From positions 1-9,195 of IMG/VR virus record IMGVR_UViG_3300010279_000202: a DNA stretch of 9,195 bases; one strand, given 5' to 3'. The stretch is from a virus (taxonomy: Duplodnaviria; Heunggongvirae; Uroviricota; Caudoviricetes). The notes under the pieces were generated by a model. That model saw nothing but the letters and a program-made list of their open reading frames with translations. It was not told the DNA's origin and made no database searches. Within the stretch, counting starts at the first letter, position 1; every line of letters begins with the position of its first letter. Positions 2,001 through 6,590 of this stretch are shown here, piece after piece. Position numbers and translations under genes: made by a program.

Positions 2001-2020
2001 TACTGTTCATTTATACAGTA
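2001..2020. promoter_or_regulatory. LexA (SOS) box
   Basis: TACTGTTCATTTATACAGTA matches the consensus TACTGTATATATATACAGTA at 17/20 with both CTGT and ACAG arms intact (CTGT 2003-2006, ACAG 2015-2018). Sits in the divergent region between humD (start 1981) and the plus-strand operon (start 2156). Confidence 0.75.
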
Positions 2021-3097: not shown

Positions 3098-3186
3098 TCT
3101 ATACAGGCATGTATAACAACAACGAGCCTATTAGCTGTCAACAACGTTATTTCCTCAAATAAGAAAAAGCAGAAAACAAATTGTTT

Positions 3187-3207
3187 AAGGTCACAAATTG
3201 TGGCCTT
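3187..3207. other. Hairpin: 9-bp stem (one U-G wobble) with 3-nt loop, flanked by the palindrome AAACAAATTGTTT
   Basis: AAGGTCACA-AAT-TGTGGCCTT. On the minus strand the stem is followed by AAACAATTTGTTTTCTGCTTTTTC, so it could terminate leftward transcripts, but the T-run is not immediately adjacent. Confidence 0.3.
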
Positions 3208-3856
3208 GATGGAGGAGGGAGGCTTATTGGCTATGGCTAAAAATCAAATTAGACACTTCATGTTGCTGTAGCTCATCAAGATCCGAGGCCACAAAACCTT
3301 TTCCGAAAAACTTCACAAGTAACTCACTAGCCGCATCATTGTCACCTATTACACGAAAGTCATACGGCAACGTCGCAAGTTGACGATGTAATCCTGCTGA
3401 GAAAGTCGAATCTAACAGCGCCCAGAATTCCCACCGCAGGATAATACTCGCCTCTTAATACTGTATATATGTTGTTACGATATGTTTTTCTGTCTCTAAA
3501 AAAAGATGTTAATAGAATGCTAACCATTGAAGTGGATAAAAATATACAATTCCAACAAACGTTATTTTTAACAATTTTTTTCTTTGCGTTGACTTTCCCG
3601 GACACCTTGTCTGACCGAAGGTGCGCGAAAGCCACTTTTTCCTTCCTGAGTTATCCACAAAGTTATGCACTTGCAAGAGGGCCATTTTCTACATATTGTG
3701 GTGGCTAACAGATGAAATGAATGTAGATTAATTGAAGATAAGGAGAAAATTTGAGATGCAATCATGACGTTAATAGATAGGGTCTGCATTACAGACCCCA
3801 CCCGCATCAAGGAATTAGCCGTTCCCTGATGTTTTTCCGAAAACATGTGCCGTAAG

Positions 3857-3923
3857 CTCACGTTAACGACTTTCATTCACCGAATCCAACTATATAGGGG
3901 TTGGGTTTCTACGTCAACGTGAG
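3857..3923. promoter_or_regulatory. Inverted-repeat pair: 13-bp arms (12/13 match) separated by about 41 bp; candidate operator
   Basis: Left arm CTCACGTTAACGA (3857-3869); reverse complement of right arm (3911-3923) is CTCACGTTGACGT. The arms flank an AT-rich spacer with TATATA (3891-3896) and lie about 40 bp upstream of the small ORF at 3960. Confidence 0.35.
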
Positions 3924-3959
3924 CAAGTGCACCTTTACATTTGACAAGGAACCACCTGA

Positions 3960-4097
3960 ATGAACGCTTTTTTTCAGTTCCTGAGTGCATTTTTAGATGC
4001 GCCTATTATTAGCCAGATTCTGGCTATTATCCTCATCATCGTTTTGATTTTGCTTTTAAGGTCAGTAAAAAATGGAATTATGCACTGGCTTACTTAA
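3960..4097 (+). CDS. Small hydrophobic (single-TM-like) protein, 45 aa
   Basis: ATG at 3960 with AAGGAA SD 9-14 nt upstream; product MNAFFQFLSAFLDAPIISQILAIILIIVLILLLRSVKNGIMHWLT has an uninterrupted hydrophobic core and basic tail. Stop is embedded in the palindrome ATGTTTCAGTGAAACAT. Below the track's size cutoff. Confidence 0.35.
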   Translation: MNAFFQFLSAFLDAPIISQILAIILIIVLILLLRSVKNGIMHWLT

Positions 4098-4172
4098 TGT
4101 TTCAGTGAAACATTAAAATCTCCTTGATGTGGAAACAATCATTTTCTGTATGTGCTGGTGGGCACCTGTAGT

Positions 4173-4535
4173 TCAGCTTTCGTTGGCATTTAACTTCGTC
4201 TTTGCTTTCTCCACCAGCAACTTCCAGATGCCTATTTCATTAGCAGCCGCCTTGATGGCGGCATAAAAAGCATCTTGCTGATCGTAACGCTGGATCTGTT
4301 TTTTCAGTTTTGCCTCCACCAATTTAATTTCATTACGTGCTTTCTGAAGCCGCATCACCGCCCGGTTACGTCTGTTCTTGTATAGCGTGTTAATCTCTGA
4401 CAATTGCTTTAATTTACCAGCCTGACTGTGGATTATCGCCTCCCTGGCTTCTGCCGTGCGTCTCATCTGATCTCTTAAGAGTTCACCGTTTTCGATAATT
4501 CTTTCAAGGTGTTTGATGTGATCTGCAACTCTCAT
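4173..4535 (-). CDS. Hypothetical coiled-coil protein, 120 aa
   Basis: ORF rich in heptad-like K/E/R/L/A/Q stretches; start ATG overlaps the upstream stop (ATGA at 4532-4535). Last gene of the minus-strand operon. Confidence 0.65.
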   Translation of the reverse strand: MRVADHIKHLERIIENGELLRDQMRRTAEAREAIIHSQAGKLKQLSEINTLYKNRRNRAVMRLQKARNEIKLVEAKLKKQIQRYDQQDAFYAAIKAAANEIGIWKLLVEKAKTKLNANES

Positions 4536-5161
4536 ACTTCACCCTCGCTTGTATCACCAGCGTCCACCAACGACAATAAAGCCCTGGCCATCTTATGAAC
4601 CAACAGTGCATCAATAATGCCAAGCGTATGCCCCGGCTTAATGTTTAATGCTGCCTCAAGATGACACCTTTCCAGACCGCTTTTCTCGGCTTGTTTATGA
4701 TGATATGGCGTAATAACGTCGCCCAAAACACGGCTAATTCTTTCTCGTAATTGCTGGGTGCCAGCACACTTGATCGCTGTATCGTGGAGACGGTTAACCA
4801 GTTCGCGATAAACATGCGGCTTAATGCGGATACGTTCACCGGTGACGCCCTTTCCTGGCGCTGGCACCGAACTATCCGGAATATCCGGATAGTTGCCAGC
4901 CTCGTAAGCTACCCGCAGCCAGTGCATGAATGTTTCAGTGGACACACAACCACAGTCCACATCGATTTTTCCGCGTTGCTGTTCCAGCCACTGCTCAAAA
5001 TTCAATCTACACGTATTACTTTCATGTTGCTCTTTTTGTCTCAAGGCCAGCATCTGCTGGGCTATTTCCAATACTTCATCTGCCGTATATCCAGCACCGT
5101 GACCATACATTTCGATACGGGAAATAATCTCTGATATACGCTCTTCAGTTATTCTGGTCAT
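4532..5161 (-). CDS. Hypothetical protein, about 209 aa
   Basis: Track ORF 4532..5176; I prefer the ATG at 5161 (MTRITEERISE...) because it forms an ATGA overlap with the upstream stop (5158-5160), the pattern used throughout this operon. The ATG at 5176 remains possible. Confidence 0.65.
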   Translation of the reverse strand: MTRITEERISEIISRIEMYGHGAGYTADEVLEIAQQMLALRQKEQHESNTCRLNFEQWLEQQRGKIDVDCGCVSTETFMHWLRVAYEAGNYPDIPDSSVPAPGKGVTGERIRIKPHVYRELVNRLHDTAIKCAGTQQLRERISRVLGDVITPYHHKQAEKSGLERCHLEAALNIKPGHTLGIIDALLVHKMARALLSLVDAGDTSEGEV

Positions 5162-5532
5162 TTCTTTTTGCGCCATTTCTTTTCACATTCCTTAGTCCAT
5201 TTTTCAATGTTCATTTTGGCAATATCAGTCATTCCATCACCTAAGAAATACTTTCTCCGGTACGTCTTGCACTTAAACCACACTACAACAGCCACCAGCC
5301 AGAAAATAAAAGGCCATACAGCAATACCAACTCCAGCCGCGATAAAGCCCAATAGCCATAAATGAAGCTCTCCAACTTCTGTTTGCGGCAATATTCTTAA
5401 AGAATTAAGCAGCAGACTGAAGGAATGGTCGTATGCATTGGCGGTATAAGACATGCAATCCATATAATTAAAGTCATAGCCTGCGGCTGCCGCCCATAAT
5501 GGGCGGTCAAGAAAATGTTTTAGTGTCATCAT
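5158..5532 (-). CDS. Small membrane protein, 124 aa, two predicted TM helices plus lysine-rich C-tail; superinfection-exclusion-like by architecture
   Basis: Hydrophobic stretches LHLWLLGFIAAGVGIAVWPFIFWLVAVVVWF followed by the charged tail KWTKECEKKWRKKK. Functional guess rests on architecture only. Confidence 0.6.
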   Translation of the reverse strand: MMTLKHFLDRPLWAAAAGYDFNYMDCMSYTANAYDHSFSLLLNSLRILPQTEVGELHLWLLGFIAAGVGIAVWPFIFWLVAVVVWFKCKTYRRKYFLGDGMTDIAKMNIEKWTKECEKKWRKKK

Positions 5533-5538
5533 ATAAAT

Positions 5539-5832
5539 TTAAGGTTCAGACCAGTTATCTTCAATAGCAATGCTTAATCTTTGTAGCCATTCTGCTAATT
5601 TCAGCATTGCTTCTCTTTCGCTTAAACCACGAGGAAAATCATCAAGCGAAATTGTTGGCTTGAAGCCCCCGTAATTATCCATTTCAACAGTCAGATTTTG
5701 CTCCAGCACGGTATTCCTTACGCGGCTGTTGTGTCGAAGCAAATATACTGAACGTGATTTATTGGTTTTATGGTCAAACTGATATTCGGTAAGTATCATC
5801 TGGCTTTTGCCATGACTATTACCTCTCCACAT
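5539..5832 (-). CDS. Hypothetical protein, 97 aa
   Basis: Track ORF 5539..5919; preferred start is the ATG at 5832 (MWRGNSHGKSQ...) preceded by TGAGGT SD. The longer N-terminal extension is hydrophobic, out-of-pattern, and overlaps the small ORF at 5840-5962. Confidence 0.55.
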   Translation of the reverse strand: MWRGNSHGKSQMILTEYQFDHKTNKSRSVYLLRHNSRVRNTVLEQNLTVEMDNYGGFKPTISLDDFPRGLSEREAMLKLAEWLQRLSIAIEDNWSEP

Positions 5833-5839
5833 ACTTACC

Positions 5840-5962
5840 TCACTTAATAAAACAACTCCATACGTAGTTGATGATTTTTTCCCACGTAATATAAATATGC
5901 ACTCCAGCAGAAAAACCAAAACCTACAATTACTGAAAAAATCAAAACATTTACTTTTGACAT
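5840..5962 (-). CDS. Possible small membrane peptide, 40 aa
   Basis: ATG at 5962; product MSKVNVLIFSVIVGFGFSAGVHIYITWEKIINYVWSCFIK. Its TGA stop lies inside the SD of the next gene. It fills an otherwise unexplained 180-bp gap in a tightly packed operon, but its own SD is weak. Confidence 0.3.
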   Translation of the reverse strand: MSKVNVLIFSVIVGFGFSAGVHIYITWEKIINYVWSCFIK

Positions 5963-6010
5963 TATAAATTTTCTCTCGGTGTCGTAGGTGATAGCACCAT
6001 AATTGATAAT

Positions 6011-6244
6011 TTAGTGAGTTAGCAGTTCCATTTTTTGGATGATTTCCGCATGAGCATCATCGTTATCAACACTTAACTCGTTTAATGCCTCTCGCACCAC
6101 ATCAACTTCTTCTGGTTGGAAGAAATCATCTCGGTAGTCACCAAATAGAACCGAAACAAGCCTGCCACCAGCAACATCAAGATTGGCGCTAACAGGTGGC
6201 TCTTTACCATCCTCAAATTCGACTACAAAAGTTATTTTTCCCAT
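6011..6244 (-). CDS. Hypothetical acidic protein, 77 aa
   Basis: Track ORF 6011..6262; preferred ATG at 6244 (MGKITFVVEFEDGK...) preceded by GGTGG SD. Confidence 0.6.
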   Translation of the reverse strand: MGKITFVVEFEDGKEPPVSANLDVAGGRLVSVLFGDYRDDFFQPEEVDVVREALNELSVDNDDAHAEIIQKMELLTH

Positions 6245-6246
6245 CG

Positions 6247-6330
6247 TTACCACCAACGACAAATTGAATACAAACCCAGTGCTGCCGCCATCACAATTCC
6301 TACCGTGGTGAATGCTTCAGGCCAGCTCAT
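6247..6330 (-). CDS. Possible hydrophobic micro-ORF, 27 aa
   Basis: ATG at 6330 overlaps the upstream stop (TAATG); product MSWPEAFTTVGIVMAAALGLYSICRWW; stop is 2 nt before the next start. Fits the coupling pattern but is very short. Confidence 0.25.
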   Translation of the reverse strand: MSWPEAFTTVGIVMAAALGLYSICRWW

Positions 6331-6590
6331 TATCTCACCTCCAGTCTCCATACCGCCTGACCAATCCGGCTGGCATGGGTATCTTTGGATACTGTTCCGT
6401 CTTTAGCCATCTCCATAAGAATTTTGCGCAAATCTGCCGAACGCCATTCTTCATCAGGAAATTCCTTCTCCATTGCCAACCGCAGATTCCAGGTTGCCAT
6501 CCTGAATGGATATTCCCCGCCGAGAGCTTTATCTTGCAGGGCAGCCCGGGAACGCATCACCTGCAAAACCTTCTCTTTTACATCCATCAT
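6330..6590 (-). CDS. Hypothetical protein, 86 aa
   Basis: Track ORF 6330..6662; preferred ATG at 6590 (MMDVKEKVLQ...) forms an ATGA overlap with the upstream stop and follows a strong AGGAGG SD. Confidence 0.65.
   Translation of the reverse strand: MMDVKEKVLQVMRSRAALQDKALGGEYPFRMATWNLRLAMEKEFPDEEWRSADLRKILMEMAKDGTVSKDTHASRIGQAVWRLEVR

What the first reader, a model, noticed from the sequence alone, without database searches (positions are those of the whole stretch)
5158..5532. Two-TM membrane protein with polybasic tail: candidate superinfection-exclusion or membrane-acting function
Within an early-operon-like cluster, a 124-aa protein with two strongly hydrophobic helices and a KKWRKKK tail resembles, by architecture only, small phage membrane proteins that block superinfection or DNA injection.
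Basis: inference. Interest (0 to 1): 0.4.

Follow-up and report, generated by a model that had tools for sequence, protein, structure and literature searches.

The report
Uncharacterised small phage inner-membrane protein
The finding is a real, conserved 124-residue membrane protein gene in an accessory early operon of a P1-like phage-plasmid; it belongs to a phage protein family of unknown function, and nothing specifically supports a role in superinfection exclusion.

Summary
The ORF at 5158-5532 (minus strand) is a genuine gene. It is identical to RefSeq WP_023356289 and is carried by 269 of 5426 complete E. coli genomes, almost always on P1-like plasmids. It matches PHROG family phrog_2638 (unknown function) over its full length.

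The description is only partly right. There is one uncharged hydrophobic stretch (residues 56-86; family-wide core 63-86), not two helices. It contains a near-invariant Pro74, and AlphaFold2 models it as a single helix. The KKWRKKK tail exists but is conserved only among close relatives. The conserved parts are the N-terminal ~40 residues and the WP[FL]xFW motif in the membrane helix.

Charge bias predicts a single-pass protein with the N-terminus out and the C-terminus in.

The gene is translationally coupled to its neighbours. In P1 and in a near-identical relative, the operon begins at a C1-repressor operator, so it is probably an early lytic operon. Relatives sit in early, replication or nin regions of lambdoid, P22-like and also virulent phages, and never in lysis cassettes.

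No known exclusion, holin, defence or structural family matches. My best reading is a non-essential early factor acting on a host inner-membrane component. Exclusion is possible but unsupported. Interest is modest.

The parts
5158..5532 (-). Target CDS, 124 aa plus stop. Member of phrog_2638; identical to WP_023356289; RCS47 p0098 and SJ46 J46_0088 are the same gene.
5368..5532 (-). Residues 1-55: the most conserved part of the family. Motif M-x-T-[LF]-K-H-F-x-D-x-P-x-W-A-A-A-A-G-Y-D-F-N-x-x-D-C. P11, A14 and G18 are invariant, and F7, Y19 and D25 nearly so, even in distant members. Net acidic. AlphaFold2 predicts helices at 4-9, 11-16 and 23-46. Predicted periplasmic, which is an inference.
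5275..5367 (-). Residues 56-86: the single hydrophobic membrane segment. The family-wide uncharged core is residues 63-86 (5275-5346). It carries Pro74, invariant in the closer relatives (39/39) and 88% conserved in the diverse set, and the motif W-P-[FL]-x-F-W.
5158..5274 (-). Residues 87-124 plus stop: basic juxtamembrane stretch (KCKTYRRKY), a turn, then an amphipathic helix (103-123) ending KKWRKKK. It holds 14 K/R. C88, N108, W112 and C-E-K-K-W are conserved in the closer subfamily only. The last 4-19 nt overlap the next gene.
5539..5832 (-). Upstream gene (phrog_1258, unknown function; 97 aa from Met30 of the listed ORF). Its stop lies 6 nt before the target's ATG.
4532..5176 (-). Downstream gene: an N-terminal 'MTRITEERI' module of the Ead/DUF551 type fused to P1 PmgU (93% identity over 111 aa). 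Its likely true start is the ATG at 5161, which forms an ATGA overlap with the target's stop.
4173..4535 (-). pmgV homologue (96% identical to P1 PmgV); last gene of the co-directional chain.
4173..9149 (-). Co-directional, mostly overlapping or abutting chain of accessory genes (DUF551, Ead-like and PHROGs of unknown function). It occupies the position of the P1 pmgT-pmgV operon, which is 'variable region 8' of P1-like phage-plasmids. No consensus terminator was found on this strand upstream of the target.

Best explanation
The gene encodes a single-pass inner-membrane protein of the uncharacterised phage family phrog_2638. It is co-transcribed and translationally coupled with a non-essential accessory operon. 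That operon is repressed by C1 in the plasmid prophage and switched on early after induction or infection.

Inferred mechanism:
- The protein inserts with its acidic, conserved N-terminal ~55-residue helical domain in the periplasm and its basic tail in the cytoplasm.
- It uses the conserved N-domain and the sequence-specific, Pro-kinked membrane helix (WP[FL]xFW) to bind a host inner-membrane or periplasmic component that is conserved across Gammaproteobacteria.
- In this way it modulates the envelope during lytic growth, as a host-takeover factor. Blocking entry of a second phage is one possible consequence.
- The polybasic tail is a subfamily-specific topology or anchor element, not the functional core.

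Shown here: the gene is real and conserved; it has one membrane-competent segment; the operon context and the operator in relatives; no membership of any known functional family.

Inferred: topology, timing of expression in this exact element, the existence of a host target, and the phenotype.
For: One hydrophobic segment. Hessa-scale sums are about 0 kcal/mol or below for a single 19-residue window per member, and at least +4 for any other segment. The family-wide uncharged core is 24 aa. AlphaFold2 gives a single helix at 53-97 with pLDDT 84.

Positive-inside rule. K+R in the 15-residue flanks average 0.95 on the N side and 5.10 on the C side, with C>N in 39 of 39 close members. In the diverse set the averages are 1.42 and 4.35, with C>N in 25 of 26. 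Net charge of the N-domain is -3.1 and of the tail +6.5.

Where conservation lies. It is concentrated in the N-domain and in the membrane helix: P74 is invariant in 39/39 and 88% in the diverse set, F77 is 92% and W78 is 87%. This argues for specific contacts rather than a generic anchor.

Early, operon-embedded expression.
- P1 annotates the C1 operator OpmgT/Op88 and promoters directly upstream of the equivalent operon.
- The identical operator sequence follows pap in plasmid pKBN10P04869B, whose copy of the target is 100% identical.
- There is no consensus promoter or terminator around the gene on its strand.
- Junctions are stop/start overlaps or 6-nt gaps, both here and in homologues.

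Accessory status. The region is one of eight variable regions of P1-like phage-plasmids (PMC9603915). The P1 genes at this position are non-essential (PMC10695390).

A host-directed rather than virion-specific role. The family occurs in P1-like myoviruses, a P22-like phage, lambdoid prophages, a Yersinia siphovirus and Proteus Gorganvirus. It also occurs in virulent Kagunavirus, Dickeya jumbo phages and Alteromonas N4-like phages. In all annotated cases it sits in early, replication, recombination, nin or ea regions.
Against: There is no experimental datum and no homologue of known function, so the mechanism is an inference from architecture and context.

Exporting a folded ~55-residue N-terminal domain without a signal peptide is uncommon in E. 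coli (established knowledge). The Kagunavirus-type member has its charge bias reversed. An N-in/C-in re-entrant hairpin around the near-invariant Pro therefore cannot be excluded.

The operator was seen in relatives, not in the window, which ends before that position. The window's gene array is a mosaic with no full-length match in the collections.

The AlphaFold2 alignment is shallow (39 sequences), and the model takes no account of the membrane.
Confidence: 0.45

Rival explanations
1. Superinfection exclusion: the membrane protein blocks DNA entry of incoming phages. It would act either in the lysogen, like P22 SieA or HK97 gp15, or during lytic growth, like T4 Imm.
For: It is a small inner-membrane protein of a temperate element in a non-essential variable region. 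Known DNA-entry blockers are small inner-membrane proteins that share no common sequence family (PMC10883804; PMC11436027). Lack of homology therefore does not exclude the idea. Early expression fits a T4 Imm-like role.
Against: No match to Imm, SieB or any PHROG annotated as exclusion.

The gene is not organised like a prophage-expressed moron: it has no promoter or terminator of its own, is translationally coupled, and sits behind a C1 operator or in N-dependent nin/ea regions.

The family is shared by phages with unrelated tails, receptors and ejection machinery, including virulent ones. Known injection blockers are specific to a phage type.
Confidence: 0.18
2. Lysis-timing function: a holin-like, antiholin-like or amurin-like protein. 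The membrane helix with a central proline and the basic cytoplasmic tail would gate or inhibit a membrane target, much as phiX174 E uses its Pro21-containing helix against MraY.
For: Small size, one membrane segment and a highly charged C-terminus are generic holin traits (established knowledge). There is a weak, non-significant hit of residues 84-123 to a holin PHROG (phrog_20, E 0.09). The Pro is near-invariant in the membrane helix.
Against: The gene is never next to an endolysin. Every annotated context has a separate canonical holin/endolysin cassette several kilobases away. Early expression of a holin would be lethal. The charged tail is absent in distant members. There is no Pfam hit to holin or microvirus lysis families.
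Confidence: 0.07
3. Membrane anchor for phage DNA replication or recombination, analogous to phi29 p16.7: the basic cytoplasmic tail binds DNA or replication proteins and tethers them to the membrane.
For: The gene recurs next to replication or recombination genes. It lies directly after, and overlapping, the helicase-primase gene in Kagunavirus ST20. It lies between helicase/exonuclease and primase genes in a Proteus phage. It lies after O/P/DnaB-type genes in prophages. The tail here holds 14 K/R in 38 residues.
Against: The tail is the least conserved part. It is reduced to about 12 non-basic residues in exactly the phage where linkage to the replication gene is tightest. The conserved N-domain is predicted to lie on the other side of the membrane. 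In lambdoid phages, proximity to replication genes simply reflects the position of the nin region.
Confidence: 0.08
4. The ORF is not a functional gene, or the hydrophobic stretch is not membrane-inserted (an annotation artefact, or a soluble helical bundle).
For: No Shine-Dalgarno sequence lies directly upstream in this window. AlphaFold2 packs helix 23-46 next to the start of the long helix.
Against: Length and motifs are conserved over about 60 homologues down to about 25% identity. pN/pS is below 0.4. Homologues have GGAGG ribosome-binding sites and stop/start overlaps. A 19-residue window averages Kyte-Doolittle 2.4 within 31 consecutive uncharged residues, well above what a soluble protein core would be expected to show (established knowledge, not tested here).
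Confidence: 0.03

Closest known systems
PHROG family phrog_2638 (function unknown); RefSeq WP_023356289; RCS47 p0098; SJ46 J46_0088; Yersinia phage P840 ORF53 (mislabelled 'conotoxin')
   Same: Full-length profile match at E 4.9e-63. All 26 diverse relatives tested hit the same PHROG. Length, N-terminal motif and membrane helix are the same.
   Different: Nothing differs: this is the family the protein belongs to. It has no assigned function, no Pfam entry and no solved structure.
T4 Imm (Pfam PF14373, Imm_superinfect)
   Same: A small phage inner-membrane protein made early in the lytic cycle. This is a functional analogy only (PMC11436027).
   Different: No sequence similarity. One membrane segment here, not the two hydrophobic segments I recall for Imm (from memory, not tested). 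The conserved ~55-residue N-terminal domain has no counterpart.
P22 SieA and HK97 gp15 (prophage-expressed inner-membrane blockers of DNA injection)
   Same: Inner-membrane location is predicted. Both are carried by temperate elements and are non-essential.
   Different: SieA has 162-164 residues and three predicted membrane segments, and is expressed from the prophage in the lysogen. The target has one segment, lies inside a repressor-controlled or delayed-early operon, and also occurs in virulent phages. No PHROG or Pfam link.
phiX174 lysis protein E (a membrane helix with an essential proline plus a basic cytoplasmic tail; inhibits MraY) - resemblance recalled from established knowledge
   Same: A membrane helix with a near-invariant central proline, followed by a basic cytoplasmic region. 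This suggests sequence-specific helix-helix binding to a host membrane protein.
   Different: No homology. E has no N-terminal extramembrane domain. The target is encoded in dsDNA phages that have their own holin/endolysin cassettes.
phi29 p16.7 (early membrane protein that anchors replicating phage DNA) - recalled from established knowledge
   Same: An early gene near replication genes, membrane-anchored, with a basic cytoplasmic part in this subfamily.
   Different: p16.7 has an N-terminal anchor and a conserved C-terminal DNA-binding domain. Here the C-terminal part is variable or missing, and the conserved domain is N-terminal.

Membership tests
phrog_2638 (uncharacterised phage protein family) | Significant full-length match to the family profile | tested here: met
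   E 4.9e-63, residues 1-122 against profile positions 1-120 of 120. All 26 diverse homologues hit the same PHROG.
phrog_2638 (uncharacterised phage protein family) | Shared architecture: ~100-135 aa, an N-terminal F-x3-P-x2-A-x3-G-Y-x5-D motif, and one hydrophobic helix with a central Pro | tested here: met
   Alignments A2 and A3; per-column analysis.
T4 Imm superinfection immunity (PF14373) | Match to the Pfam model | tested here: not met
   No Pfam hit for the target. PF14373 is absent from the hits of all 26 members at E<=1.
T4 Imm superinfection immunity (PF14373) | Exclusion phenotype: block of DNA transfer by a superinfecting phage | not testable with these tools
   Needs efficiency-of-plating and DNA-entry assays.
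Prophage-expressed injection blockers (P22 SieA, HK97 gp15) | Sequence or profile similarity to a known exclusion family | tested here: not met
   A PHROG scan at E<=10 returns only phrog_2638, a holin PHROG at E 0.09 and an unknown PHROG at E 0.13. No Pfam SieB hit.
Prophage-expressed injection blockers (P22 SieA, HK97 gp15) | Expressed from the prophage in the lysogen, as an independent transcription unit | tested here: not met
   By sequence only. There is no consensus promoter or terminator flanking the gene. Junctions are coupled. The C1 operator heads the operon in P1 and in L001. Homologues sit in nin/ea regions. Expression itself was not measured.
Holins | Small protein with at least one membrane segment and a charged C-terminus | tested here: met
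   These are generic traits and are not diagnostic.
Holins | Encoded in a lysis cassette next to an endolysin or spanin; match to a holin family | tested here: not met
   Holin/endolysin genes lie several kilobases (about 3-5 kb) away in L003, L004, L012 and L013. The only hit is a non-significant one to phrog_20, at E 0.09.
Known anti-phage defence systems (PADLOC-DB) | Match of the protein or its neighbours to a defence-system model | tested here: not met
   No hits for the target or for nine neighbouring proteins at E<=0.01.
   There is a single segment. The second-best segment scores +4 kcal/mol or worse in every member. The uncharged core is 24 aa. AlphaFold2 gives one helix. A re-entrant hairpin around the near-invariant Pro cannot be formally excluded.

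The most novel reading that the evidence does not exclude
phrog_2638 could be a previously unrecognised class of early phage effector. It would be a single-pass membrane protein, shared by temperate and virulent phages of Gammaproteobacteria with unrelated virions. Its conserved N-terminal domain and proline-kinked membrane helix would lock onto one conserved host inner-membrane machine, for example a sugar-transporter DNA-entry route, the divisome or elongasome, or FtsH/HflKC. The outcome could be a new mechanism of exclusion or of envelope takeover.
Probability: 0.2. Interest if true: 0.55.

Novelty: new member of a known kind. Interest (0 to 1): 0.3.

Why it matters
P1-like phage-plasmids are common in clinical and livestock E. 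coli and Salmonella, and they carry resistance genes. This gene is present in about 5% of complete E. coli genomes (269 of 5426), yet it has no assigned function.

The work here yields a defined candidate with testable features: the conserved N-domain, the near-invariant Pro74, and a predicted N-out/C-in topology. The gene is cheap to clone and screen.

If it turns out to target a conserved inner-membrane machine, it would add a tool or target for studying phage entry or envelope takeover. If it has no phenotype, it is one more accessory ORFan.

Tried and rejected
Searches that returned nothing useful:
- Pfam, NCBIfam and PADLOC scans of the target and its neighbours gave nothing for the target.
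- A profile search of PDB sequences gave only chance hits to membrane segments, with E of 0.5 or more.
- Foldseek against BFVD gave one hit, R9RF93 (109 aa, 26% identity). It is unnamed and probably a family member (not checked), so it says nothing about function.
- The afdb50 library was not available.
- Rfam found no family in the window.
- A literature search for the accession, locus tags and PHROG number found no papers.

Ideas considered and dropped:
- A Zn or disulfide site formed by H6, C26, C88 and C116. C116 is replaced by Phe in members that keep C88, and C26 and C88 are lost independently in distant members.
- Conserved partner genes. Neighbours differ between contexts. Ead/Ea22- and DUF551-type genes recur beside the gene, but they are known mosaic-boundary modules, so I did not treat them as a functional partnership.
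- The downstream gene as PmgT. It is in fact PmgU with an added N-terminal module.

Full report
WHAT THE WINDOW IS

The window matches P1-like phage-plasmids (Punavirus). Salmonella phage SJ46 covers 81% at 98% identity. P7, RCS47 and P1 itself cover smaller parts.

It contains doc (918-1298), phd (1298-1525) and the S24 peptidase humD (1592-1981), all on the minus strand. An lxr-like gene follows on the plus strand. From 9149 down to 4173 there is a chain of co-directional minus-strand genes.

That chain ends in close homologues of P1 PmgU (93%) and PmgV (96%). P1's pmgT is replaced by an array of lambdoid-type accessory genes: DUF551, Ead-like N-terminal modules, and PHROGs of unknown function.

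The pmgT-humD segment is one of eight highly variable regions of P1-like phage-plasmids (PMC9603915). The P1 genes at this position are dispensable for lytic growth (PMC10695390).

CHECK OF THE OBSERVATION

The ORF at 5158-5532 is on the minus strand, starts with ATG-ATG and encodes 124 residues ending CEKKWRKKK.

It is a real gene:
- RefSeq annotates a 100% identical copy as WP_023356289. RCS47 and SJ46 annotate it too.
- 269 of 5426 complete E. coli genomes carry it, with 270 of 274 copies on plasmids.
- It matches phrog_2638 end to end at E 4.9e-63.
- About 60 homologues of similar length occur in Escherichia, Salmonella, Klebsiella, Citrobacter, Enterobacter, Yersinia, Rahnella and Xenorhabdus.
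- pN/pS against RCS47 and SJ46 is 0.19-0.38, on few substitutions.

The 'two strongly hydrophobic helices' are not there:
- Kyte-Doolittle and Hessa-scale scans find one contiguous uncharged stretch, residues 56-86. No other segment comes close to being membrane-competent in any of 65 family members.
- In the diverse alignment, columns 58, 59 and 62 are charged in 23-31% of members. The universal hydrophobic core is therefore residues 63-86, 24 residues with Pro74 in the middle. That is one membrane span.
- AlphaFold2 on a 39-sequence alignment (pLDDT 84, pTM 0.67) gives helices at 4-9, 11-16 and 23-46, one long helix at 53-97, and a last helix at 103-123.

The polybasic tail is real but is a subfamily trait. 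Closer relatives keep C88, N108, W112 and C-E-K-K-W. Several distant members have short, non-basic or even net-acidic tails, and the Kagunavirus protein has only about 12 non-basic residues after the membrane segment.

WHAT IS CONSERVED

The strongest conservation lies in the first ~40 residues (M-x-T-L-K-H-F-L-D-R-P-x-W-A-A-A-A-G-Y-D-F-N-x-x-D-C). P11, A14 and G18 are invariant, and F7, Y19 and D25 are nearly invariant, even at 21-30% overall identity.

Inside the membrane helix, P74 is invariant in the closer set and 88% conserved in the diverse set. F77 and W78 are about 90% conserved in the closer set. A generic anchor would not preserve a central proline and an aromatic motif. I therefore infer sequence-specific contacts within the membrane.

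TOPOLOGY (INFERENCE)

K+R counts in the 15 residues flanking the core are 0.95 on the N side and 5.10 on the C side, with C>N in 39 of 39 close members. In the diverse set they are 1.42 and 4.35, with C>N in 25 of 26. The N-domain is net acidic (-3.1) and the tail net basic (+6.5). The positive-inside rule therefore predicts N-out/C-in.

Caveats:
- Export of a ~55-residue N-terminal domain without a signal peptide is unusual.
- The Kagunavirus-type member has a reversed bias.
- A re-entrant hairpin around the near-invariant proline cannot be excluded without reporter fusions.

EXPRESSION CONTEXT

The target's ATG lies 6 nt after the stop of the upstream phrog_1258 gene. Its stop overlaps an ATGA start of the PmgU-fusion gene. 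Homologues in prophages show TGATG or ATGA overlaps and GGAGG ribosome-binding sites.

On the minus strand there is no consensus promoter immediately upstream of the gene, and no terminator between 9149 and the gene.

In P1, the equivalent operon is headed by promoters P1/P2pmgT, which overlap the C1 operator OpmgT (Op88) right after pap. The identical operator sequence (ATTGCTCTAATAAATCT) sits right after pap in plasmid pKBN10P04869B, whose copy of the target is identical. The window ends before that position and contains no operator itself.

I infer that the gene is repressed in the plasmid prophage and expressed early after derepression.

RELATIVES ELSEWHERE

The gene lies in:
- the nin region of a Rahnella prophage, between NinX and NinF, and after lambda-P-like replication genes in another enterobacterial prophage;
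- the region between Ead/Ea22 and DUF551 genes in Klebsiella prophages, once in the leftward operon near int and once after replication genes;
- the leftward N/Kil operon of a Citrobacter prophage;
- the nin region of P22-like Klebsiella phage phiKp_30, after ninB;
- the recombination/Dam region of Yersinia phage P840;
- the region between helicase/exonuclease and primase genes in Proteus Gorganvirus.

Distant members occur in virulent phages:
- Kagunavirus ST20, directly after and overlapping the helicase-primase gene;
- Dickeya jumbo phages;
- Alteromonas N4-like AD45 phages.

An exhaustive HMMER search of 1.84 billion representatives found only 35. The family is narrow but spans several virion types and both lifestyles. 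It is never in a lysis cassette or a structural module.

COMPARISON WITH KNOWN FAMILIES

- No Pfam, NCBIfam or PADLOC hit.
- For 26 diverse members at E<=1, Pfam returns only scattered single hits to membrane segments, and neither Imm_superinfect nor SieB.
- PHROGs returns only phrog_2638, plus a non-significant holin hit at E 0.09.
- There are no solved relatives by sequence and no meaningful fold match.

Known injection blockers such as P22 SieA are larger, have three membrane segments, are expressed from the prophage, and are specific to one phage type (PMC10883804). None of that fits this gene. T4 Imm is an early-expressed analogy only.

INTERPRETATION

The best-supported account is a non-essential, early-expressed, single-pass inner-membrane protein. 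Its conserved N-domain and proline-kinked membrane helix would engage a conserved host envelope or inner-membrane component. I give this a confidence of about 0.45 as a class of mechanism.

The spread across phages with unrelated receptors and ejection machinery favours a host-directed role over a phage-type-specific block on entry.

Other readings, with my estimates:
- superinfection exclusion: possible, about 0.18;
- a lysis-timing role: about 0.07;
- a phi29 p16.7-like replication anchor: about 0.08, disfavoured by the missing lysis-cassette linkage and the poorly conserved tail;
- an artefact: about 0.03.

VERDICT

The finding is a real gene of an already catalogued but functionally unknown phage family. 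The description needs correcting: one membrane segment, minus strand, and a tail that is not the conserved feature. The exclusion hypothesis is untested and has no specific support. Interest is modest, at 0.3. It is a cheap candidate for expression, topology and deletion experiments.

Noticed in passing
window 3558-3696 (within the unannotated stretch 3100-4170): About 140 bp are ~93% identical to the chromosomal ypaB / nrdA-upstream region present in all 5426 E. coli genomes. The P1 record notes a 56-bp piece of a host region with two predicted DnaA boxes in its corresponding upfN/upfO interval; whether it is the same host region was not checked. The surrounding ~1.07 kb has no annotated gene in RefSeq copies on P1-like plasmids.
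   Followed up: partly
window 3960-4097 (+) and 3889-3917 (-): A 45-aa, very hydrophobic ORF (MNAFFQFLSAFLDAPIISQILAIILIIVLILLLRSVKNGIMHWLT; annotated in SJ46 as J46_0085). The best sigma-70-like promoter of the window (TTGACG-17-TATAGT) lies on the opposite strand, about 45-70 nt upstream of the ORF's start and firing away from it (divergent arrangement). By eye the ORF resembles a small toxic membrane peptide. No Pfam or Rfam match.
   Followed up: partly
window 5840-5962 (-): A second small hydrophobic ORF (40 aa; SJ46 J46_0090). It lies in the ~180-nt low-GC gap upstream of the phrog_1258 gene, two genes before the target.
   Followed up: no
window 2003-2018: A LexA-box-like CTGT-N8-ACAG (CTGTTCATTTATACAG) between humD and the divergent lxr-like gene 2156-2740, at the same place where P1 annotates a LexA site.
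   Followed up: partly
window 4532-5176 (-): The gene after the target is a fusion. Its first ~100 residues are an Ead/DUF551-type 'MTRITEERI...' module (phrog_60/924/3126). Its last 111 residues are P1 PmgU (93%). The same N-terminal module starts the genes at 6587-7543 and 8418-8780, which suggests recombination at these repeated gene heads.
   Followed up: partly
window 7540-8127 (-): A 195-aa protein (phrog_9263/phrog_631, unknown function) with a D...E-x-K-like motif (PDAMGF...LIEAKC). By eye this resembles a PD-(D/E)xK nuclease. No Pfam, NCBIfam or PADLOC hit.
   Followed up: no
L003 5001-5360 (Yersinia phage vB_YenS-P840 ORF53): This homologue of the target is annotated 'conotoxin' in GenBank, which is almost certainly a spurious label. 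In Proteus phages 2207-N35 and Isfahan the homologous stretch lies under a feature named 'ribonucleotide reductase large subunit', which is probably another mis-annotation.
   Followed up: no
L001 1438-1524: Between the C1 operator Op88 and the first gene of the accessory operon in pKBN10P04869B there is a short ORF, read by eye from the sequence, encoding a hydrophobic peptide (MNTAFKIIMAAIYFWLFSITFGGIVAHG). It is not annotated.
   Followed up: no
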